DNA of 64,000 nt, from sequence record OP292222.1; one strand, 5' to 3'. This stretch comes from Escherichia phage Esco_phi_B-01. Position 1 is the stretch's first letter. Each line of letters opens with the position of its first letter. Positions 8,320 to 17,582 of the stretch are shown one piece after another. A program made the position numbers and the translations under genes. The notes beneath the pieces are model-generated. The model did no database searches. It had not been told where the DNA came from and saw nothing but the letters and a program-made list of their open reading frames with translations.

Positions 8320-11031
8320 ATGCAAGAATTCTATTTGACAGTCGAACAAATCGGTGATAATATTCTCGAACGTTACATCGATAAAAATGGTAACGAACGT
8401 AGTCGTGAAGTTCCTTACAAGCCTACAATGTTTATGCATGCCAACCCAGAGCAAGCCGTAAAATATATTGACATCTACGGTAAGGGCTGTGTTAAGAAAG
8501 AATTCGATTCAATGCGCGATGCTTCTCAGTGGATGAAGCGAATGGACGATATGGGTCTCGAAGCCCTTGGTATGGACGACTACAAATTAGCCTATTTGTC
8601 TGATACCTATCGTAAAGAAATCAAGTATGATTCTTCCAAGATTCGTATTGCTAACTTCGACATCGAGGTAACATCTCCTGATGGATTCCCTGAACCTGCC
8701 CAGGCTAAACATCCTATCGATGCCATTACTCACTACGACTCGATTGACGATAAATTCTATGTATTCGACCTTTTAGTTTCACCTTATGGTACGGTCGAAG
8801 AGTGGTCGATTAAAATCGCTGAGAAACTCCAAGACGAAGGTGGTGACGAAGTTCCACAAGAAATCATTGACAAAATCGTTTATCTTCCGTTTAATTCTGA
8901 AGAAGAAATGATGCTTGAGTATCTGAATTTCTGGCAACAGAAAACTCCTGTGATTTTGACTGGATGGAACGTTGAATCATTTGACGTGCCATACGTTTAT
9001 AACCGTCTGAAAAATCTGTTTGGTGAGAACACTGCTAAGCGATTAAGCCCGCATCGTAAGACTCGTGTTAAAGTTATCGAGAATATGTACGGTGTTCGTG
9101 AAATTATTACACTGTTCGGTATTTCTGTTCTGGATTATATCGACCTTTATAAAAAATTCAGCTTTACTAACCAGCCTTCTTATTCTCTGGATTATGTTTC
9201 TGAATATGAATTGAAAGTAGGTAAGTTGAAATATGATGGTCCTATCTCCAAGTTACGTGAGACAAACCACCAACGATATATTTCCTATAACATTATCGAC
9301 GTATATCGTGTTGTGCAGATTGATATGAAACGCCAGTTCATTCTTCTTAGTCTGGACATGGGTTATTATGCTAAGATGCAGATTCAGTCAGTGTTCAGTC
9401 CAATTAAGACTTGGGACGCTATTATCTTTAATAGCCTTAAAGAACAGGGTAAAGTTATTCCTCAGGCCAAATCGCATGCGGTTCAACCTTATCCAGGTGC
9501 TTTCGTTAAGGAACCTATTCCTAACGCGTACAAATATGTAATGAGTTTCGACCTTACATCTCTGTACCCAAGTATCATTCGACAAGTGAATATAAGCCCA
9601 GAGACCATCGCAGGCACATTCGCCAACGCACCGATACATGAATATATTGCCGGAACTGCTCCGCGTCCTAGCGACACCTACAGTTGCTCTCCTAACGGCA
9701 TGATGTACTATAAAGACCGTGATGGTGTGATTCCTACAGAAATCACGAAGGTGTTCTTACAACGTAAAGAACATAAAGGTTATATGCTCGCAGCTCAACG
9801 TAATGGTGAGTTAATTAAAGAAGCATTAGAAAATCCTAATCCATCTGTTGATAGTCCACTGGATATCGATTATCGTTTCGACTTCTCTGACGAAATCAAA
9901 GCCCAGATTAAAAAATTGTCAGCATCTTCTTTAAAAGAAATGTTGTTCAAAGCCGAACGTACTGAAGTCGCAGGTATGACTGCTCAGATTAACCGTAAGT
10001 TGCTTATCAACTCCCTTTATGGTGCACTTGGTAACGTATGGTTCCGTTACTATGACCTCAGGAACGCAACTGCAATCACATTGTTTGGTCAAATGGCCCT
10101 CCAATGGATTGAACGTAAGGTTAACGAATATCTGAATAGCGTATGTAAGACCGAAAACCAGAAGTTCGTGCTCTATGGTGATACCGACTCCATTTATGTT
10201 AAGGCCGATGCAATCATCAATAAAGTAGGCGAAGATAAATTCCGTGATACTAACCACTGGGTTGACTTCTTAGATAAATTTGCACGTGAACGTATGGAAC
10301 CAGCTATTGATGCAGGCTTCCGTGAGATGTGTGAATACATGAACAATAAACAGCACTTGATGTTCATGGACCGAGAAGCTATCGCAGGTCCTCCACTTGG
10401 TTCTAAAGGTCTTGGTGGATTCTGGACAGGCAAGAAACGTTATGCACTGAACGTTTGGGACATGGAAGGTACTCGTTATGCCGAACCACACTTGAAAATC
10501 ATGGGTCTCGAAACTCAGAAATCAAGTACACCTAAAGCGGTTCAGAAAGCACTGAAAGAATGTATCCGTCGTATGCTTCAAGAAGGCGAGGCCTCTTTGC
10601 AAGAGTATTTCAAACAGTTTAATAAGGAATTTAACGAATTAGACTATGTAAGCATTGCTGCAGTATCCAGTGCTAACAACATCGAGAAATATAATGAAGG
10701 TGGTTTCCCTGGTTCTAAATGCCCGTATCACATCAAAGGTTGCTTAGCTTACATGCGTGCTTCTGCTGGTGATTTGACTATGCCTCGTATCGTTGATGGT
10801 GAAAAGGTATATGTACTGCCACTTAAAGAAGGCAACCCGTTCGGTGAAGCTTGTATGGCATGGCCGTCAGGTATTGAACTTCCGATTCAGATTCGTGACC
10901 AAGTCCTCCGTTGGATGGACTACAACGTACTGTTCCAAAAGACCTTTATCAAACCCCTGACCGGTTTTACTGAGTCTGCTAAAATCGACTACGAGAAAAA
11001 AGCAACATTATTTGACATGTTTGACTTTTAA
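8320..11031 (+). CDS. 43: gp43 DNA polymerase (family B)
   Basis: start MQEFYL aligned to T4 MKEFYI; exo motifs (FDIE), pol motifs (SLYPS, YGDTDS); RBS aaaggaaa. Confidence 0.95.
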   Translation: MQEFYLTVEQIGDNILERYIDKNGNERSREVPYKPTMFMHANPEQAVKYIDIYGKGCVKKEFDSMRDASQWMKRMDDMGLEALGMDDYKLAYLSDTYRKEIKYDSSKIRIANFDIEVTSPDGFPEPAQAKHPIDAITHYDSIDDKFYVFDLLVSPYGTVEEWSIKIAEKLQDEGGDEVPQEIIDKIVYLPFNSEEEMMLEYLNFWQQKTPVILTGWNVESFDVPYVYNRLKNLFGENTAKRLSPHRKTRVKVIENMYGVREIITLFGISVLDYIDLYKKFSFTNQPSYSLDYVSEYELKVGKLKYDGPISKLRETNHQRYISYNIIDVYRVVQIDMKRQFILLSLDMGYYAKMQIQSVFSPIKTWDAIIFNSLKEQGKVIPQAKSHAVQPYPGAFVKEPIPNAYKYVMSFDLTSLYPSIIRQVNISPETIAGTFANAPIHEYIAGTAPRPSDTYSCSPNGMMYYKDRDGVIPTEITKVFLQRKEHKGYMLAAQRNGELIKEALENPNPSVDSPLDIDYRFDFSDEIKAQIKKLSASSLKEMLFKAERTEVAGMTAQINRKLLINSLYGALGNVWFRYYDLRNATAITLFGQMALQWIERKVNEYLNSVCKTENQKFVLYGDTDSIYVKADAIINKVGEDKFRDTNHWVDFLDKFARERMEPAIDAGFREMCEYMNNKQHLMFMDREAIAGPPLGSKGLGGFWTGKKRYALNVWDMEGTRYAEPHLKIMGLETQKSSTPKAVQKALKECIRRMLQEGEASLQEYFKQFNKEFNELDYVSIAAVSSANNIEKYNEGGFPGSKCPYHIKGCLAYMRASAGDLTMPRIVDGEKVYVLPLKEGNPFGEACMAWPSGIELPIQIRDQVLRWMDYNVLFQKTFIKPLTGFTESAKIDYEKKATLFDMFDF

Positions 11032-11033
11032 GT

Positions 11034-11063
11034 GTTTACATACCACATGGAACGTGGTATTAT
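11034..11063 (+). promoter_or_regulatory. T4-type early promoter (GTTTAC - 18 - TGgTATTAT)
   Basis: -35 GTTTAC at 11034-11039, extended -10, conserved leader cctatcaactacatgagga. Confidence 0.6.
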
Positions 11064-11093
11064 CCTTCCTATCAACTACATGAGGAAATTATA

Positions 11094-11330
11094 ATGGAAG
11101 CTTTAATCGTTAGTGCTGGTGTTTTAGGATTCGGTTCTCTGGCTATTATGTTCATTGGTTACTTTTTACCATGGATTCTAGCTCTTTTGCGAGGCACCCG
11201 TAGCAATGTCGGAATCTTCTTCCTTAATCTCTTGTTAGGATGGACGATGATTGGTTGGGTAGTGGCTTTAATCTGGGCCATCGTCGCTGAACGTAAATCA
11301 AACGCACAAATCATTATCGTTAAACAATGA
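11094..11330 (+). CDS. imm: Imm-like superinfection immunity membrane protein (two TM helices)
   Basis: 78 aa with two hydrophobic helices and conserved GW motifs; sits where T4 has imm, next to gene 43. Confidence 0.5.
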   Translation: MEALIVSAGVLGFGSLAIMFIGYFLPWILALLRGTRSNVGIFFLNLLLGWTMIGWVVALIWAIVAERKSNAQIIIVKQ

Positions 11331-11464
11331 AGATAATTATTTTATTTCTTATAATGACTGCCTTTACCGTTTATTGGGCAGTGGCAATTCCTCCAATGAT
11401 TCCAACATTAATCATAGGATGGATTATTCTTATAGCACAAATTAAGTATAACTGTTTTAATTGA
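11327..11464 (+). CDS. small hydrophobic membrane peptide (45 aa)
   Basis: ATGA overlap with the imm-like stop; hydrophobic throughout. Confidence 0.35.
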   Translation: MKIIILFLIMTAFTVYWAVAIPPMIPTLIIGWIILIAQIKYNCFN

Positions 11465-11471
11465 GGATATT

Positions 11472-11972
11472 ATGAAAAAGTTAATTATCGCAATGAGTAT
11501 GCTCCTATCAGGTTGCGCGGTCCAATACGGTGATGCAGTTTCGGCTGATGAAGTTGGTAAAGCTCGTATTGCAGCTGAACAGAAACAATTCGACGGCGAA
11601 ATGAAATTCCGTGCCGGTTCTGGACTTGTGTATACCCGAGCTAATAATCAATGTGGTAATAACTGTGCAAAATATGCTCAAAGGGAAATCGAATTCCAAC
11701 GTGAACAAGAGTCTAAGCGTGAAGAGGTACTAGCCAAACACCAGGCAGAAATGAAGCGCCAAGATGATTTGTACAAAAAGCAGAAACTGTATTCTATGTG
11801 TGTAAACCATATCAATCTACAGATTTCTGTCCATGAGGCTCGTTATTACGAAATGCTCGAAACCGAGAGCTTCGATAAAGCTCGTGATTATAAGAAACAA
11901 ATCAACAAGCTTAAGACCAAAGTGCCTGCTGCAGTAGAACAGTGCATGGAATACGGTAAAGATAAGATTTAA
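11472..11972 (+). CDS. putative lipoprotein (166 aa)
   Basis: signal peptide with lipobox LLSGC; RBS gagga. Confidence 0.6.
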   Translation: MKKLIIAMSMLLSGCAVQYGDAVSADEVGKARIAAEQKQFDGEMKFRAGSGLVYTRANNQCGNNCAKYAQREIEFQREQESKREEVLAKHQAEMKRQDDLYKKQKLYSMCVNHINLQISVHEARYYEMLETESFDKARDYKKQINKLKTKVPAAVEQCMEYGKDKI

Positions 11973-12032
11973 GCAATAGAAATTTATTAAAAATAGTGTA
12001 TAATGTACCTACATTCACTTGAGGAACAGATA

Positions 12033-13706
12033 ATGAAAAAGGTTGTTATTTTAGGCGCAGGTCTTGGCTCACGGTTGTATCCAATTACTAACGAAATCCC
12101 GAAGGTATTGGTTAACTATAAACAACATACGGTATTAAAGCATTTGTATGATTTGTATAGTAACCAATCAGATGAAATTATTCTGGTTATTCACAGCAAA
12201 TTTAACGACCTCGTTAAAGGCTATATTAAATCCATTAACATGATTACTGGTGATAAGCCTAAATTCACTATTCGTAACGTTGATGTTGCTAATGGTTCAG
12301 CTCATGCAATCGATTGCATTGCCGAAGATATCATTGGCCATAATGTCCTGTTTAACTGGTGTGACATCATTCCTATCGGTCATAAAGTTGAATGGGGTAA
12401 CGACTACTGTTATACCTATGGAACTGACTGTCGTTTTACATTTGAAGAACCGTACTTACGTGAAATTGGTACTGGTGGCGGTGTAGTTGGTTTGTATCAG
12501 GTAGCCAATTGGACAGGTTTCGACCGTTCTAATTATGGTGAAGACCTTGCTGATAACCTGGATTCAATGGTCTATTTGACCGAACGTAAACTGGATTTTG
12601 TAGTTGATGTCGGTGACAAATTGAAACTGGCTAAGGCCCATGAAGAATCTGAAATTAACCGTGAATTTAATAAATTAGAATTCACCGAGAATCTGGCTAT
12701 TAAAGTACCAACTAACGAATTAGGTAAAGAAATTCAATCTAAAGAAATCAATTGGTATAATTCTATTGATTCTGAATTCGTTCCTAGCATTGTAGACTTT
12801 TCTCCAGGCGAATTCATTAAAATGGAACGTATCTTTGGTCGAACCATGGCAGATGCCTACCGGTTTATGTCCAAAGAAACTAAAGTCCTCATGGTTTATA
12901 AGGTCATTAGTGCATTACGTTCATTTGGTGGAACTATTGATAACCCGTCCGATGAGCAATGGTATTCCGATGTTAAGAAAGAAGTATTGGACAAGGTCCT
13001 TATTCGTAATGCTTCTATTGCTGGATTGATTGAAGGCTTTGCTCCACAGGGCATTACCCATGTTAACGATTTCAAAGTAGGCGACCCTGAAAAACTTCTT
13101 CGCCATGCACTAGAAATTCTGTCTGAACATAAAGAACCGTACCAACTTATTCATGGCGACCCGCACTACAGTAATATTATGCTGTCGGACGAAGGTGATA
13201 TTAAAATCATCGACCCACGTGGTTATTTCGGTAATAGTTCTAAAGGCCCTGCGATTTATGATGAAGCTAAGGTGCTTTATTCTATCGATGGCTATGACAA
13301 ATTTAACTCAGACCCTCTATGGGGCGGATTAACTCGTAACGGAACTCGTGTATTCGTTGATATCGAAAAGATTATGCCTTTAGACGATATCCCTATGTGC
13401 ACATTTAAGCACAAGCTCTGGATTGCTGTTATTTGGATGGCTCTGGCAGGTTACTTTAAGAATAACCCTCTGAAAGCTCTAGGTGCTTATTATAACGGTT
13501 TGTACCAACTGAGTGTGCTGCTGAAGCGGCATCCTCGTAAGCGTAAGCTTATTACGGGTGAATTTGTCGATGAAGTTCGTGACCCTATTACGGCTCAAAT
13601 TATTACTCGTTGTCCTGATAAGTGGGTTTTGCTTGACCAGGAAACTGGTGTAAAATATAAACCTACAGGTTCTACTGAACTCCACAAACAATGGAAGAAA
13701 ATTTAA
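12033..13706 (+). CDS. bifunctional sugar-1-phosphate nucleotidyltransferase / APH-like sugar kinase fusion
   Basis: N-terminal ILGAGLGSRLYPIT...PKVL (RmlA/GlmU-type NTP-transferase signature); C-terminal HGDPHYSNIML...IIDPRGYFG (aminoglycoside/choline kinase fold Brenner and DxxG motifs); RBS gagga. Confidence 0.75.
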   Translation: MKKVVILGAGLGSRLYPITNEIPKVLVNYKQHTVLKHLYDLYSNQSDEIILVIHSKFNDLVKGYIKSINMITGDKPKFTIRNVDVANGSAHAIDCIAEDIIGHNVLFNWCDIIPIGHKVEWGNDYCYTYGTDCRFTFEEPYLREIGTGGGVVGLYQVANWTGFDRSNYGEDLADNLDSMVYLTERKLDFVVDVGDKLKLAKAHEESEINREFNKLEFTENLAIKVPTNELGKEIQSKEINWYNSIDSEFVPSIVDFSPGEFIKMERIFGRTMADAYRFMSKETKVLMVYKVISALRSFGGTIDNPSDEQWYSDVKKEVLDKVLIRNASIAGLIEGFAPQGITHVNDFKVGDPEKLLRHALEILSEHKEPYQLIHGDPHYSNIMLSDEGDIKIIDPRGYFGNSSKGPAIYDEAKVLYSIDGYDKFNSDPLWGGLTRNGTRVFVDIEKIMPLDDIPMCTFKHKLWIAVIWMALAGYFKNNPLKALGAYYNGLYQLSVLLKRHPRKRKLITGEFVDEVRDPITAQIITRCPDKWVLLDQETGVKYKPTGSTELHKQWKKI

Positions 13707-14089
13707 TGTCGTATCGAGTAGAAAATAAGCCACATTTATGTTTTGATATCGATAACACAATCACGATTTGGAACCATGACCGTGATTATGAGAACTTTAA
13801 ACCGGACACCGAAATGGTGTCCATGATTAATAAGCTTTATGATGAAGGGTACGAGATTACATTGTTCACCGCGCGTGGCATGACTTCATGTGGCCCAGGT
13901 CGAATCTTGGTTGAAGTAGTTCCTGCCTTGGTTAAGAACCTTGAAAAAATTGGATTGAAATATCACAATTTGCTTACACATAAGCCGAGTTATACTTTTA
14001 TCATCGATGACCGAGCAATCCGTCCTGACCACTTTAAAGAAATGGTTCGTGAAGGAACTCTTGATGGTTATAAGGCCTATCATCCATGA
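13706..14089 (+). CDS. small HAD-superfamily phosphatase
   Basis: motif I FDIDNTIT near the N-terminus, TAR motif II; TAATG coupling to the upstream gene. Confidence 0.6.
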   Translation: MSYRVENKPHLCFDIDNTITIWNHDRDYENFKPDTEMVSMINKLYDEGYEITLFTARGMTSCGPGRILVEVVPALVKNLEKIGLKYHNLLTHKPSYTFIIDDRAIRPDHFKEMVREGTLDGYKAYHP

Positions 14090-14622
14090 ATCCAAAAATC
14101 ATTGTTATAGACGGCCCGGATAATTCCGGGAAGTCCACTTTAATTAAAAATCTGTTATCCAATAAGAAATACCGCCTTATTGATTTTCCTAAAAAGATTA
14201 ATGGCAAGTGTATTTCATTAGGAACTGATAACGATAAGGCTTTAGTTGAAACTCTGTATAAGTTTTTAGACCCTAATTTCGTTTATATCCTTGACCGTGG
14301 TTATCCAAGTAATATTGTTTACTCAGGATTCCTTCGTGGTGAAATGGACCCTTATGTAGAACTGGAAGATTGGAAAGGGTTTAAATCTGAATTTAACGTT
14401 ATCGAGGTTATTTTAACTCGCAACCCATTAGACGAAGACTTCGAAGACGACCTTATTAAATTAACCGAAGATGAGTTCAACCTAACTATCCGGCAATACG
14501 AAACATGTTTTGAAAACGTGTTTAAAATCTTAAATCATGACGGCCATAATAATTTGCTTAATGTTGATATGGTAGAATTAAAACGTCTGAACGAATATAT
14601 TGAAAATAAGGTGAATAAATGA
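14086..14622 (+). CDS. thymidylate-kinase-like P-loop nucleotide kinase
   Basis: IVIDGPDNSGKST P-loop and DRGYPSNIVYSG (TMK DR(Y/F)..S..AYQ-like motif); ATGA coupling. Confidence 0.6.
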   Translation: MNPKIIVIDGPDNSGKSTLIKNLLSNKKYRLIDFPKKINGKCISLGTDNDKALVETLYKFLDPNFVYILDRGYPSNIVYSGFLRGEMDPYVELEDWKGFKSEFNVIEVILTRNPLDEDFEDDLIKLTEDEFNLTIRQYETCFENVFKILNHDGHNNLLNVDMVELKRLNEYIENKVNK

Positions 14623-15317
14623 AACACATTACCGCTGTTAGTTTTGAAAATGCATTTAAACAAATGAACGAAGAAATCCTGGAAGCTCCACAGTTTGCAG
14701 TTGATTCTCGTATCGGACGTTGTTATGAAATTGGTTCTGCTTCGGTAGAAGTACTGGATGCAAGCACCTATAAATTCACCGACCCACGTATTAATCGTAT
14801 TAGTTATGAATATGCCGAATCCTTTTGGAAATTTATGATTTCTGGTGGTACTGACGCTGCCGAAGCATTTAAGGAATACCCTAATGTTGCTAAGTTCATT
14901 GATAAGCCGAAAAGTGACGTATTGCCTGCAAACTTCAACACTTTCTATGGACCTCGAATTGTGGCCCAACTCCCAGCCCTACTTAAAGAGCTTAAAGAAA
15001 AGGCTAACTCGCGAAGAGTTGTGTTCCAGATTCTCCAAGAACAAGACCAAGCCCTCCTTGATTCTGACGAATCCTTAGAATATCCGTGTACCGATTCGGT
15101 AACGTATTATATTCGTGACGGACGTTTGTATGCACACACCCATATGCGTTCACAGAACTGCGCTGTTGTTATGCAGCTGGATTTCTATCTGCAGGGTAAA
15201 CTGATGGCATTTATTGCTGAACAGTGTGGTGTCGGTTTAGGTACATATTCCCACACCATGGTAAGTGCACACGTGTTTGAACGCGATTTTGACTACGTCC
15301 GAGGTTTCCTGAAATGA
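14619..15317 (+). CDS. 42: dCMP hydroxymethylase (thymidylate-synthase fold)
   Basis: catalytic-Cys region YPCTDSV and MRSQN... align with T4 gp42 FMCTNTV / MRSND; position as in T4. Confidence 0.8.
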   Translation: MKHITAVSFENAFKQMNEEILEAPQFAVDSRIGRCYEIGSASVEVLDASTYKFTDPRINRISYEYAESFWKFMISGGTDAAEAFKEYPNVAKFIDKPKSDVLPANFNTFYGPRIVAQLPALLKELKEKANSRRVVFQILQEQDQALLDSDESLEYPCTDSVTYYIRDGRLYAHTHMRSQNCAVVMQLDFYLQGKLMAFIAEQCGVGLGTYSHTMVSAHVFERDFDYVRGFLK

Positions 15318-16207
15318 GTTTGTTTATCGTTCCTATTTTCAGTATGCGTAGTTACGAAACAGGTGAATATGCCGTCCTTAAGGACGGCAATTTTCAACTC
15401 CATTTAAATCGTGCTCGTCCAGGTGATTATCTGGCTTATCCTAGAAATTCGAGCGATATCAAAGAATGCATTGAATTATTCCCGGAACTGAATTTCGTAC
15501 CACTTTGGTATAAAGAAAATGCTTATGAAACCCGTAAACATTTCTGGTCTGAAAATGAGTTTGTAGTCGATTCACTAATCGAATACTACGATTGCTCAGG
15601 ACTGGTAACTGATATCACCGGTTATGATGGTGCTCACACTGTACAATTCAACTTTAATATCACAATGGACCCTGAAGTTCCTCGTTATTATATCGACGAG
15701 TTCATTGATATTGATGTGGCTTCAGTTGAACGTTCACTTTATACTACAGTCCTGAATCAATGCCAGAAAGACGTCCTGGTGTCACGAGGTGCATCCTCTG
15801 ATAAGATTTTTGTAGACCAAAAGGTAATTAATCCTGCAGTAATTGAGCGTTACTCTGAAGGTCTAGCGCCTATTAAAATTGATGGTATTTTCCATCCATT
15901 CCGTATTTCGGATAAGTGCTATCAATTCGAAAGAGTTGTAGACCAAGCTGCCGCTGAAGGTGCTCGTCTTTATATCACTGACCCGAATGATTCATTTAAG
16001 CGTGAAGACTATCGTCCTGATGTAGAGATTATTAAATTCAAACCGAGTAAGGTTGAATATTATCAAATTCTGAAATCAAGACCACATATCATTTATCATG
16101 AGAACCCAGGTTTAGTATTCCATCCTGGTCTGGCTGAATTCATTTATTTCGGTGCCAATATTCATTCTGAATACGAAATGCCACGTTATGAGGACGTAGT
16201 ATGCTAG
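15314..16207 (+). CDS. hypothetical protein in the beta-glucosyltransferase position; candidate hmC glycosyltransferase
   Basis: 297 aa, coupled to gene 42 (ATGA), no recognisable similarity to T4 beta-gt; function inferred from position and operon context only. Confidence 0.45.
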   Translation: MSLFIVPIFSMRSYETGEYAVLKDGNFQLHLNRARPGDYLAYPRNSSDIKECIELFPELNFVPLWYKENAYETRKHFWSENEFVVDSLIEYYDCSGLVTDITGYDGAHTVQFNFNITMDPEVPRYYIDEFIDIDVASVERSLYTTVLNQCQKDVLVSRGASSDKIFVDQKVINPAVIERYSEGLAPIKIDGIFHPFRISDKCYQFERVVDQAAAEGARLYITDPNDSFKREDYRPDVEIIKFKPSKVEYYQILKSRPHIIYHENPGLVFHPGLAEFIYFGANIHSEYEMPRYEDVVC

Positions 16208-16332
16208 GTCCTCTATTGCTTTTTATAGGTTTGTTATTATTCTCTTTCGGAGCCTTGCTATTACTAGTGTGGCTCGAGAAACGAGAAGTTCGGAAGATAG
16301 TCGATAAGGCTATCAACCGAGGAATTAAGTAA
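16201..16332 (+). CDS. small membrane peptide (43 aa, one TM plus basic tail)
   Basis: ATG overlapping the upstream stop; hydrophobic core LLLFIGLLLFSFGALLLLVWL. Confidence 0.35.
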   Translation: MLGPLLLFIGLLLFSFGALLLLVWLEKREVRKIVDKAINRGIK

Positions 16333-16357
16333 TGCTGTAGCTGTGAAGTGATATAAT
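16333..16357 (+). promoter_or_regulatory. MotA-dependent middle promoter for uvsX (TGCTGTA - 12 - TATAAT)
   Basis: MotA-box-like element with one mismatch, correct spacing to -10. Confidence 0.5.
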
Positions 16358-16409
16358 TACCCTATCTTAAAACGTGAGAAAAATATAATGATGCCTATGG
16401 AAAAATATA

Positions 16410-17582
16410 ATGTCTGATTTAAAATCCCGTTTGATTAAAGCTTCTACTTCTAAAATGACTGCCGACCTGACCAAATCTAAATTGTTTAATGGTCGTGACG
16501 AAGTTCCTACTCGTATTCCTATGCTTAATATTGCATTGGGTGGTGCGTTGAATGCAGGCTTACAATCAGGTTTGACAATCTTTGCTGCACCGTCTAAACA
16601 CTTTAAAACGTTGTTTGGATTAACTATGGTTGCGGCATATATGAAGAAATATCCAGACGCAATTTGCTTGTTCTATGACTCTGAATTCGGTGCTTCAGAA
16701 TCTTATTTCCGTTCAATGGGTGTTGACCTGGAACGTGTGGTTCATACGCCAATCCAGTCAGTCGAACAACTGAAGGTTGACATGACCAACCAATTAGAAG
16801 AAATTACTCGTGGCGAAAAGGTTATTATCTTTATCGACTCCATCGGTAACACTGCTTCTAAGAAAGAAACCGAAGATGCTTTGAACGAGAAAGTTGTAGG
16901 TGATATGACTCGTGCTAAGTCTCTGAAATCTCTGTTCCGTATCGTAACACCTTATCTGACTATCAAGGATATTCCTTGCGTAGCAATTAACCATACGGCT
17001 ATGGAAATTGGTGGAATGTATCCTAAAGAGATTATGGGTGGCGGTACTGGTATTCTGTACTCTGCTTCTACCGTATTCTTTATCTCTAAACGTCAGGTTA
17101 AAGATGGTACCGAGCTCACTGGTTATGACTTCACCCTGAAGGCCGAAAAATCTCGTACTGTTAAAGAGAAATCAACGTTCCCAATTACTGTGAACTTTGA
17201 AGGTGGTATCGACCCATTTAGTGGTCTGCTCGAAATGGCTACTGATATTGGCTTTGTTGTGAAACCTAAAGCTGGTTGGTATAATCGTGCATTCCTTGAC
17301 GAAACCACGGGTGAAATGGTTCAAGAAGAAAAATCATGGCGTGCTAAAGCTACCGATTGTGTCGAGTTCTGGGGACCGCTGTTTAAACATGCTCCATTCC
17401 GTGAAGCAATCGAGAATAAGTATAAGCTCGGTGCAATTAATTCTATTAAAGAAGTCGATGATGCGGTGAACGACCTTATTAACTCTCGTGTCTCTAAGAA
17501 CGTTGCAGTTAAATTGAGTGGCGACACTCAAAGCGCAGCTGATATCGAAAACGATTTAGAAGAGATGGATTTAGATGACTGA
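16410..17582 (+). CDS. uvsX: UvsX recombinase (RecA-like)
   Basis: N-terminus MSDLKSRLIKASTSK identical to T4 UvsX; conserved throughout. Confidence 0.95.
   Translation: MSDLKSRLIKASTSKMTADLTKSKLFNGRDEVPTRIPMLNIALGGALNAGLQSGLTIFAAPSKHFKTLFGLTMVAAYMKKYPDAICLFYDSEFGASESYFRSMGVDLERVVHTPIQSVEQLKVDMTNQLEEITRGEKVIIFIDSIGNTASKKETEDALNEKVVGDMTRAKSLKSLFRIVTPYLTIKDIPCVAINHTAMEIGGMYPKEIMGGGTGILYSASTVFFISKRQVKDGTELTGYDFTLKAEKSRTVKEKSTFPITVNFEGGIDPFSGLLEMATDIGFVVKPKAGWYNRAFLDETTGEMVQEEKSWRAKATDCVEFWGPLFKHAPFREAIENKYKLGAINSIKEVDDAVNDLINSRVSKNVAVKLSGDTQSAADIENDLEEMDLDD

What the first reader, a model, noticed from the sequence alone, without database searches (positions are those of the whole stretch)
14086..14622. 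Thymidylate-kinase-like kinase coupled to dCMP hydroxymethylase
A 178-aa P-loop protein with a TMK-type DR(Y)..S..Y motif lies directly upstream of and overlapping gene 42. T4 phosphorylates hm-dCMP with gp1, encoded elsewhere; a dedicated TMK-like enzyme inside the modification operon suggests either an alternative hm-dCMP kinase or a kinase acting on a modified nucleotide or sugar intermediate.
Basis: partly seen in the sequence, partly recalled or inferred. Interest (0 to 1): 0.5.

Follow-up and report, generated by a model that had tools for sequence, protein, structure and literature searches.

The report
Short thymidylate-kinase-like kinase in arabinosyl-hydroxycytosine operon
The gene is real and encodes a small thymidylate-kinase-fold enzyme, but it sits in an already described phage operon that makes arabinosylated 5-hydroxycytosine DNA (not hydroxymethylcytosine), where its family is already listed as a 'nucleotide kinase' whose exact substrate I could not find tested.

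Summary
The 178-aa ORF at 14086..14622 is confirmed. It has a P-loop (GPDNSGKST), a DRGYPSNIVY motif and 4-nt ATGA overlaps with both neighbours. The window is a JS98/Bas46-like Dhakavirus, and the protein is JS98 gp040, a homolog of RB69 ORF045c and DLP3 gp78. The downstream gene is not a gene-42 dCMP hydroxymethylase. It is about 85% identical to PDB 9IQU and carries the published 5-hydroxy-dCMP synthase signature (E143/N169/D177). The five-gene block 12033..16207 is the known arabinosyl-5-hydroxycytosine cassette.

JS98 also encodes a conventional gp1. RB69's gp1 ortholog already phosphorylates 5-hydroxy-dCMP (Lee 2026). The most likely role is a cassette-borne kinase for the modified dCMP. 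Why a second kinase is kept remains open. Two key papers were not readable.

The parts
14086..14622 (+). Short TMK-fold P-loop kinase (178 aa). Equals JS98 gp040; homolog of RB69 ORF045c and DLP3 gp78; PHROG 761.
14113..14139 (+). P-loop / Walker A, GPDNSGKST (aa 10-18). K16 is invariant in the family. There is no P-loop arginine (N13).
14293..14322 (+). DRGYPSNIVY (aa 70-79), the TMK-type DR..S..Y motif. D70, R71 and Y79 are invariant; S75 and N76 are conserved in at least 90% of 94 family members.
14413..14460 (+). LID-equivalent segment LTRNPLDEDFEDDLIK (aa 110-125). R112, F119, D121, D122 and I124 are nearly invariant. This motif is specific to the family and is absent from classical TMKs.
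14619..15317 (+). Thymidylate-synthase-superfamily 5-hydroxy-dCMP synthase (232 aa), not a dCMP hydroxymethylase. Signature E143/C146/R166/S167/N169/D177 in E. coli ThyA numbering (aa 154/157/177/178/180/188).
   Evidence: PMC13326640
15314..16207 (+). Predicted first (base-proximal) arabinosyltransferase GT1 (297 aa). Homolog of RB69 ORF046:047 and DLP3 gp79; PHROG 3891.
   Evidence: PMC13326640
13691..14089 (+). AfhF-like HAD-type phosphatase (132 aa), homolog of RB69 ORF051c and DLP3 gp81. Public annotations mislabel it 'phosphoheptose isomerase'.
   Evidence: PMC13326640
12033..13706 (+). AfhE-like bifunctional enzyme with an N-terminal sugar-1-P nucleotidyltransferase and a C-terminal APH-type kinase. 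Published relatives are described as an arabinose-phosphate kinase / UDP-arabinose pyrophosphorylase. The likely start is the ATG at 12033; the ORF opens at 12003.
   Evidence: PMC13326640; PMC6024577

Best explanation
The gene encodes a small deoxynucleoside-monophosphate kinase of the thymidylate-kinase fold. It travels as part of a self-contained 'modified cytosine' cassette: 5-hydroxy-dCMP synthase, first glycosyltransferase and kinase. Proposed mechanism: (1) the phage dCTPase (gp56) supplies dCMP. (2) The adjacent thymidylate-synthase homolog hydroxylates dCMP to 5-hydroxy-dCMP. (3) This kinase uses ATP (P-loop K16/T18; acceptor phosphate held by R71 of the DR motif, K36/K37 of the FPKK motif, R84 and R112) to make 5-hydroxy-dCDP. 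(4) Host Ndk makes the triphosphate and the phage polymerase incorporates it. (5) GT1 adds arabinose from UDP-arabinose made by the AfhE- and AfhF-like enzymes. Steps 2 and 5 (sugar activation) are shown for homologs in the literature. The fold, the motifs and the gene association are shown here. The substrate of this kinase (step 3) is inferred.
For: Fold and motifs:
- Family profile against PDB: YorR 1e-11, vaccinia TMK 1.5e-10, many other TMKs.
- 66 of 94 family members give sub-threshold Pfam TMK hits.
- Basic residues expected for a phosphate acceptor are conserved: K36, R71, R84, R112.

Association with the nucleotide-level enzyme:
- In 31 of 31 IMG/VR loci with a core-family kinase and enough flank, a thymidylate-synthase homolog with E143/N169/D177 and a GT1 lie within about 2 kb.
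- Among 50,697 phage records the kinase, the hydroxylase-type synthase and GT1 occur in 343, 345 and 342 records, with nearly identical genus breakdowns.
- Eleven loci hold the trio with no AfhE/AfhF in the sequence held, so the link is to the base-modifying genes rather than to the arabinose pathway.
- More distant short TMK-like kinases (same P-loop, DRxxxS[DE]xxY 53-64 aa later) directly abut cytosine-specific, D169-type thymidylate-synthase homologs in 11 other viral loci.
- One relative (P0148) is a natural kinase-thymidylate-synthase fusion.

Other support:
- ATGA stop/start overlaps on both sides.
- dN/dS 0.04-0.10.
- Lee et al. 2026 list the RB69, DLP3 and RL38J1 counterparts as 'nucleotide kinase' next to the same two genes.
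Against: - No enzymatic assay of any family member was found in the papers I could read.
- JS98 has a conventional gp1, and RB69's gp1 ortholog already converts 5hodCMP to 5hodCDP. The proposed activity would therefore be redundant, which sits poorly with strong purifying selection.
- The base-recognition part of TMKs (the helix with the stacking Phe and the O4-binding Arg) is missing or remodelled. Residues in the replacement helix are not conserved across the family, so cytosine or 5-OH specificity cannot be read from the sequence.
- The kinase diverges much faster than its partners between Dhakavirus and Mosigvirus: 38% aa identity against 80% for the synthase and 68% for GT1.
- Tenacibaculum phage PTm5 has a hydroxylase-signature synthase with no kinase of this family within 5 kb.
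- Some relatives are fused to DNA-glycosylase-like domains.
Confidence: 0.5

Rival explanations
1. Kinase for the glycosylated mononucleotide. GT1 adds the first arabinose to 5-hydroxy-dCMP rather than to DNA. This kinase, unlike gp1, accepts the bulky 5-O-arabinosyl-dCMP and passes it into the dNTP pool, so the first glycosylation would precede replication.
For: - The hydroxylase, GT1 and kinase trio is strictly conserved and contiguous.
- gp1 already covers 5hodCMP, so a second kinase under purifying selection needs a non-redundant job.
- Lee et al. 2026 saw no arabinosylation of 5hoC-DNA by individual purified glycosyltransferases. They state they cannot tell whether the first arabinosylation is on the mononucleotide.
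Against: - No precedent exists for pre-replicative base glycosylation.
- GT1 has a glycosyltransferase fold like the DNA glucosyltransferases.
- DLP3 gp76/gp77 act on DNA.
- Distant relatives of the kinase pair with thymidylate-synthase homologs without any detected GT1 homolog, so the ancestral role does not need a sugar.
- Kinases in the loci where no AfhE/AfhF was found (possibly a different sugar) are as similar to the window protein (about 37-40%) as arabinose-type Mosigvirus kinases are.
- The negative in vitro result is 'data not shown' and has many possible causes.
Confidence: 0.13
2. Ordinary or broad dTMP/dNMP kinase that boosts dTTP supply for an AT-rich genome. It might compensate for a gp1 whose specificity shifted toward 5-hydroxy-dCMP.
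For: - The closest solved folds are all thymidylate kinases.
- Public annotations call it thymidylate kinase.
- A jumbo-phage TMK was dispensable in a transposon screen, which shows that phages do carry redundant TMKs.
Against: - A housekeeping Tmk would not co-occur almost one-to-one with the hydroxylase and GT1 and be counted in only 343 of 50,697 phage records.
- It scores below Pfam's TMK gathering score, 15.6 against 27 bits.
- It lacks the thymine-binding helix.
- E. coli Tmk and phage gp1 already supply dTDP (established knowledge of T4 gp1).
Confidence: 0.15
3. A kinase acting on polymeric DNA or on a non-nucleotide hydroxyl, for example phosphorylating 5-hydroxycytosine in DNA, by analogy with the 5-hydroxymethyluracil DNA kinases of thymidine hypermodification.
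For: - Relatives at E 1e-19 to 1e-21 are fused to HhH-GPD-like DNA-glycosylase-type domains, and one (P0156) to a UDG-like domain.
- One such fusion lies beside a PolA/clamp/DnaB module.
- DNA nucleobase kinases that partner HhH-fold transferases are known (PMC8989533).
Against: - The characterised DNA kinase M6 gp54 shares only the P-loop with this family (hhalign, 30 columns).
- The window protein has no fused or adjacent HhH domain.
- Glycosyl transfer from UDP-arabinose needs no phosphorylated base.
- The DR motif and other acceptor-phosphate residues of NMP kinases are retained.
- The kinase-thymidylate-synthase fusion and the adjacency to thymidylate-synthase homologs point to the mononucleotide level.
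Confidence: 0.06
4. A sugar-phosphate or UDP-sugar pathway kinase, for example an extra step in UDP-arabinofuranose synthesis or UMP/UDP supply.
For: It lies directly after the two sugar-activation genes, with overlapping codons.
Against: - The sugar kinase step is assigned to the APH-type domain of the AfhE-like protein.
- In most genera the kinase sits after GT1, away from AfhE/AfhF.
- It is present in 11 loci where no AfhE/AfhF was found.
- The fold matches NMP kinases, not sugar kinases.
Confidence: 0.04

Closest known systems
'Nucleotide kinase' of the arabinosyl-5-hydroxycytosine gene clusters: RB69 ORF045c (NP_861735) and Acinetobacter phage DLP3 gp78 (XEO41503), Lee et al. 2026, NAR (PMC13326640)
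   Same: - Homologous at 35% and 38% identity.
- Same GPDNxGKxT, FPK[KR], DRGxxSNxVY, LTRN and FxDDLI motifs.
- Same length class.
- Same cassette with the 5hodCMP synthase and GT1.
   Different: - Gene order differs. Here the kinase sits between the phosphatase and the hydroxylase. In RB69 and DLP3 it follows GT1.
- The window cassette lacks the isomerase, ORF049c/050c and second-transferase genes of RB69.
- The published entry is a structure-based label only. I found no assay.
Thymidylate kinase (EC 2.7.4.9, Pfam PF02223), e.g. vaccinia A48R (2V54), S. aureus Tmk (4DWJ)
   Same: - NMP-kinase fold.
- N-terminal P-loop.
- FP-x-basic motif after strand 2.
- DR motif followed by S...Y on the next helix.
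   Different: - 14-16% identity.
- Below the Pfam cut-off.
- About 60 residues between the P-loop and the DR motif, against about 80 in the aligned TMKs (counted from the alignment). The helix carrying the thymine-stacking Phe and the Arg is missing.
- No P-loop Arg.
- The LID is replaced by a conserved acidic FxDDLIK hairpin.
- Strictly linked to a cytosine-modifying cassette.
YorR of Bacillus subtilis prophage SPbeta (PDB 2AXP/3KB2), function unknown
   Same: - Best solved-structure match by sequence profile (E 1e-11).
- Same short architecture: 173 aa, GPDxxxKST, DRFVYSNLVY.
   Different: - About 19% identity.
- Lacks the FxDDLIK motif in the alignment.
- Function and genomic partners were not examined here.
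T4 gp1 deoxynucleoside monophosphate kinase (PDB 1DEK/1DEL) and its RB69/JS98 orthologs
   Same: It works like what is proposed here. It phosphorylates the modified dCMP made by the thymidylate-synthase homolog. T4 gp1 acts on hm-dCMP (established knowledge), and RB69 gp159 acts on 5hodCMP (PMC13326640).
   Different: - It is encoded elsewhere, between genes 57A and 3.
5-hydroxymethyluracil DNA kinases (5-HMUDK; M6 gp54, ViI gp67), Lee et al. 2021 (PMC8989533)
   Same: Phage P-loop kinases in base-hypermodification clusters. Fusions with HhH-fold proteins exist in both groups.
   Different: Only the P-loop aligns. 5-HMUDK acts on DNA and lacks the DR..S..Y motif.

Membership tests
Thymidylate kinase (Pfam PF02223 / EC 2.7.4.9) | N-terminal P-loop GxxxxGK[ST] | tested here: met
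   GPDNSGKST, aa 10-18. K16 is invariant in 94 family members.
Thymidylate kinase (Pfam PF02223 / EC 2.7.4.9) | DR[YHF] motif after strand 3, with S...[YF] on the following helix | tested here: met
   DRGYPSNIVY, aa 70-79. It aligns to DRYAFSGVAY of vaccinia TMK and DRYIDSSLAY of S. aureus TMK.
Thymidylate kinase (Pfam PF02223 / EC 2.7.4.9) | Score at or above Pfam's gathering threshold for PF02223 | tested here: not met
   15.6 bits against a cut-off of 27, with only the P-loop aligned. 66 of 94 relatives hit at E<0.01, best 1e-6.
Thymidylate kinase (Pfam PF02223 / EC 2.7.4.9) | TMK three-dimensional fold | tested here: met
   [not shown]
Thymidylate kinase (Pfam PF02223 / EC 2.7.4.9) | Thymine-binding helix (stacking Phe and O4-binding Arg, the 'LLFxANRWE' segment) | tested here: not met
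   In the profile alignment this segment of vaccinia TMK is an insertion relative to the family. Counting from that alignment, P-loop to DR spacing is about 60 aa against about 80. A single helix (aa 48-58) replaces it, and its residues are not conserved. This comes from sequence alignment only, with no superposed coordinates.
Thymidylate kinase (Pfam PF02223 / EC 2.7.4.9) | Catalytic arginine in the P-loop (type I) or a basic LID (type II) | tested here: inconclusive
   There is no P-loop Arg (N13). R112 at the start of the LID-equivalent segment is conserved in at least 90% of members, but the segment is otherwise acidic (FEDDLIK).
Thymidylate kinase (Pfam PF02223 / EC 2.7.4.9) | dTMP + ATP -> dTDP activity | not testable with these tools
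   Needs enzymology.
Cassette kinase of arabinosyl-5-hydroxycytosine phages (RB69 ORF045c / DLP3 gp78; PHROG 761) | Sequence homology to RB69 ORF045c and DLP3 gp78 over the full length | tested here: met
   35% and 38% identity with shared motifs. The JS98 annotation reads 'RB69 orf045c-like'. PHROG 761 at E 1.9e-39.
Cassette kinase of arabinosyl-5-hydroxycytosine phages (RB69 ORF045c / DLP3 gp78; PHROG 761) | Encoded beside a thymidylate-synthase homolog with the 5hodCMP-synthase signature (D169N plus N177D) and the GT1 glycosyltransferase | tested here: met
   In the window the synthase is at 14619..15317 with N169/D177 and GT1 is at 15314..16207. The same holds in 31 of 31 viral loci.
Cassette kinase of arabinosyl-5-hydroxycytosine phages (RB69 ORF045c / DLP3 gp78; PHROG 761) | Phage DNA actually contains arabinosyl-5-hydroxycytosine | not testable with these tools
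   This is reported for the about 98% identical Bas46 (dhabil) and for RB69. It was not measured for the source of this window.
T4 gp1-type dNMP kinase | Sequence or structural similarity to T4 gp1 and its JS98 ortholog | tested here: not met
   [not shown]
[quoted passage not shown] | Homology to characterised 5-HMUDK (M6 gp54) and co-occurrence with aGPT-Pplase/HhH transferase genes | tested here: not met
   hhalign aligns only 30 P-loop columns. No HhH-type gene is present in the cassette.

The most novel reading that the evidence does not exclude
The first arabinose is put on the free nucleotide. GT1 glycosylates 5-hydroxy-dCMP, and this remodelled short TMK-fold kinase exists because gp1 cannot phosphorylate the bulky 5-O-arabinosyl-dCMP. 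The phage polymerase would then incorporate an already glycosylated dCTP. This would be the first case of pre-replicative DNA base glycosylation. It would explain why a second kinase is kept under purifying selection, and why purified glycosyltransferases failed on 5hoC-DNA.
Probability: 0.12. Interest if true: 0.8.

Novelty: already known. Interest (0 to 1): 0.33.

Why it matters
It corrects the annotation. This region of JS98-like phages is an arabinosyl-5-hydroxycytosine cassette, not a gene-42/hydroxymethylcytosine operon. The labels 'thymidylate kinase', 'phosphoheptose isomerase' and 'dCMP hydroxymethylase' in public records are misleading.

The kinase is the one conserved member of the hydroxylase, GT1 and kinase trio for which I found no published assay. 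Settling its substrate would show whether it is simply the cassette's own modified-dCMP kinase, which would let the cassette work in any phage background. The alternative is that the first glycosylation happens on the nucleotide. That has practical bearing on rebuilding the pathway in E. coli to make glycosylated DNA, and on understanding how these therapy-relevant phages evade restriction and CRISPR.

Tried and rejected
- He et al. 2026 (Nat Chem Biol) and Mahler et al. 2025 (Cell Host Microbe) are not held. Searches for Afh gene names, HY126, LC53, 5hodCMP and 'arabinofuranosylation' found no paper that states the kinase's substrate. No supplements are held for Lee 2026.
- A transposon-essentiality preprint covers Bas46 and LC53 only as proof of principle, with no per-gene data for the cassette.
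- 5-hmU DNA kinase hypothesis: M6 gp54 shares only the P-loop. Rejected as the family.
- Context of the kinase/HhH-GPD fusions: two viral-contig scans found nothing. The metagenome scan gave one informative locus, whose upstream side is cut by the contig end. Left unexplained.
- Isoelectric points, to judge whether GT1 binds DNA: GT1 median pI is 4.9, but one of the two 372-373-aa ORFs at the positions of DLP3 gp77/gp76 in Acinetobacter-phage loci is also acidic (5.3-5.6). Not discriminating.
- Promoter and terminator scan of 10900..16500: counts are no higher than in shuffles. There is one plausible promoter-like site at 11977-12004 before the AfhE-like gene and nothing convincing inside the block.
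- Reading base specificity from the sequence: the helix replacing the TMK thymine-binding helix is not conserved across the family, so no call was possible.
- Search of the window for gp1, a second copy of the kinase, the RB69 isomerase, ORF049c/050c, ORF003c and DLP3 gp76/77: none found.

Full report
**What is there.** The window is a T4-like phage of the JS98/Bas46 type (Dhakavirus). Window 11000-16400 is 98.4% identical to Escherichia phage JS98 and 97.8% identical to the BASEL phages dhaeg and dhabil. The ORF at 14086..14622 (+, 178 aa) exists as described. It has a P-loop GPDNSGKST (aa 10-18) and the motif DRGYPSNIVY (aa 70-79). Its ATG overlaps the TGA of the upstream ORF (ATGA at 14086-14089), and its TGA overlaps the ATG of the downstream ORF (ATGA at 14619-14622). 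It corresponds to JS98 gp040, annotated 'thymidylate kinase; RB69 orf045c-like'. It is a real gene:
- tblastn finds homologs in 343 phage records.
- It matches PHROG 761 at E 1.9e-39.
- dN/dS against three relatives is 0.04-0.10, in the range of its neighbours.

**The neighbourhood is not a hydroxymethylcytosine operon.** The downstream 232-aa protein hits PDB 9IQU/9IQC/9IR2 at E 2e-125 (about 85% identical). It hits T4 dCMP hydroxymethylase (1B49) only at E 1.5e-4. In E. coli ThyA numbering it reads E143, C146, R166, S167, N169, D177. Lee et al. 2026 (PMC13326640) show that the RB69 and DLP3 homologs convert dCMP to 5-hydroxy-dCMP with a flavin and O2. They give D169N (with N177D and L143E) as the diagnostic signature. 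The remaining genes match their cluster:
- An AfhE-like nucleotidyltransferase plus APH-kinase (12033..13706).
- An AfhF-like HAD phosphatase (13691..14089).
- The first glycosyltransferase GT1 (15314..16207).

- Invariant: K16, D70, R71, Y79.
- At least 90%: G10, D12, G15, T18, K36, Y67, S75, N76, V78, R84, R112, F119, D121, D122, I124, F131, N132.

Compared with TMKs, the stretch between the P-loop and the DR motif is about 20 residues shorter by my count from the alignment. The helix carrying the thymine-stacking Phe and the O4-binding Arg appears as an insertion in TMK relative to the family. There is no P-loop arginine. The LID is replaced by a conserved LTRN...FxDDLIK segment. It has a TMK fold but fails two defining features of canonical TMKs. 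I file it as a short TMK-like branch, not as Tmk.

**What it is linked to.** In IMG/VR, the 33 core-family loci (L003-L035) all carry GT1 next to the kinase. The 31 with enough flanking sequence also carry a thymidylate-synthase homolog with E143/N169/D177 within about 2 kb. Eleven of the 33 show no AfhE/AfhF in the sequence held. Among 50,697 phage records the kinase, the hydroxylase-type synthase and GT1 occur in 343, 345 and 342 records, with nearly identical genus breakdowns. The surplus of two synthase records may be Tenacibaculum phages. PTm5 has a hydroxylase-signature synthase but no kinase or GT1 of these families within 5 kb.

More distant short kinases have the same GPDGxGK[ST] P-loop, with DRxxxS[DE]xxY 53-64 residues later. 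In 11 other viral loci they directly abut cytosine-specific thymidylate-synthase homologs that keep D169, which makes them hydroxymethylase-like. One relative, P0148, is a natural fusion of this kinase type with such a synthase. These observations tie the kinase to the mononucleotide-level enzyme rather than to the sugar pathway or to housekeeping dTMP metabolism.

**The gp1 question.** JS98 encodes a conventional gp1 dNMP kinase (EpJS98_gp144) between 57A and 3. The window holds neither a gp1 homolog nor a second copy of the kinase. Lee et al. 2026 report that RB69's gp1 ortholog (gp159) converts 5hodCMP to 5hodCDP and boosts 5hoC incorporation in E. coli. The other half, dTMP-only activity, is untested and looks unlikely given the strict association with the cassette.

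**Most likely mechanism (confidence about 0.5).** The protein is the cassette's own kinase for the modified dCMP, converting 5-hydroxy-dCMP to the diphosphate. Host Ndk and the phage polymerase follow, and arabinosylation comes after. A cassette that carries its own kinase would work in any phage background, which fits its presence in distantly related Straboviridae genera. The main weakness is apparent redundancy with gp1, set against clear purifying selection.

**Rivals.**
- A kinase for 5-O-arabinosyl-dCMP, if GT1 acts on the mononucleotide (0.13). Lee et al. saw no arabinosylation of 5hoC-DNA by single purified transferases. They state that they cannot say where the first arabinose is added.
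- An ordinary or broad dTMP kinase (0.15).
- A DNA-level or other hydroxyl kinase (0.06). This is suggested by relatives fused to HhH-GPD-like and UDG-like domains. The characterised 5-hmU DNA kinase M6 gp54 shares only the P-loop.
- A sugar-pathway kinase (0.04).

**Limits.** They may already report the kinase's activity. No coordinates were available for superposing the model on ligand-bound TMKs, so pocket arguments rest on sequence alignments alone.

**Verdict.** The feature is already known as a gene family in a published pathway, and the window copy is 98.9-99.4% identical to proteins encoded in deposited phage genomes (UP19, dhaeg). Residual interest lies in the unassayed substrate and in the possibility of nucleotide-level glycosylation.

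Noticed in passing
Public records variously label it thymidylate synthase, dCMP hydroxymethylase or hypothetical.
   Followed up: yes
window 11000..16400 and the whole window: The cassette here is minimal, with five genes. The 64-kb window has no homolog of the RB69 arabinose-5-phosphate isomerase (ORF055c), ORF049c/050c, the second arabinosyltransferase ORF003c, or DLP3 gp76/77. Yet the about 98% identical Bas46 is reported to carry di-arabinosylated 5-hydroxycytosine. The enzyme for the second arabinose must lie elsewhere, or GT1 acts twice. The isomerase position is taken by a 166-aa ORF (11472..11972, PHROG 1754, unknown function).
   Followed up: partly
window 14086..14622 compared with L008 (phage IME341): Synonymous divergence of the kinase gene (dS 0.79) is 2.5-3 times that of its four neighbours (0.28-0.33). 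This suggests a locally different history, such as recombination. Between genera the kinase is about 38% identical, against about 80% for the hydroxylase and 68% for GT1.
   Followed up: partly
L003-L012 against L013-L035, L088, L089: Gene order differs between lineages. The kinase lies upstream of the hydroxylase in Dhakavirus-type (adjacent) and in Klebsiella- and Proteus-phage-type loci (1.3-2 kb apart). The order is hydroxylase, GT1, kinase in RB69, Acinetobacter phages and most others.
   Followed up: partly
P0121-P0141 (alignment A3), P0156, L085:70-1092: Relatives of the kinase are fused to a C-terminal HhH-GPD-like (DNA-glycosylase-type) domain with a conserved GxGKY...PLDKELR motif, or to a UDG-like domain. 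One such fusion sits next to a PolA / sliding-clamp / DnaB module. The function is unknown.
   Followed up: partly
P0148; loci L036, L038, L042, L043, L045, L047, L051, L056-L058, L063: Short TMK-like kinases overlap or abut, and in P0148 are fused to, cytosine-specific thymidylate-synthase homologs that keep D169 (hydroxymethylase-like). This points to a general 'TS homolog plus own kinase' module in other, uncharacterised viruses.
   Followed up: partly
L023-L033 (IMG/VR contigs): Hydroxylase-signature TS, GT1 and kinase trios occur with no AfhE/AfhF-like genes in the sequence held, including L024, L032 and L033 with full 10-kb flanks. These viruses may attach a sugar other than arabinose to 5-hydroxycytosine.
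   Followed up: no
L091 (Tenacibaculum phage PTm5, 118306-128959): A hydroxylase-signature TS homolog (EYPC...HMRSNN...VLD) lies beside a gene annotated 'guanylyltransferase' and a histidine phosphatase. No kinase or GT1 of the families studied here is present. This looks like a differently built 5-hydroxycytosine cluster outside Straboviridae.
   Followed up: partly
window 13691..14089: The HAD-type phosphatase (AfhF-like) is propagated in RefSeq and PHROG annotations as 'phosphoheptose isomerase', which looks like an annotation error. Pfam finds no domain in it.
   Followed up: partly
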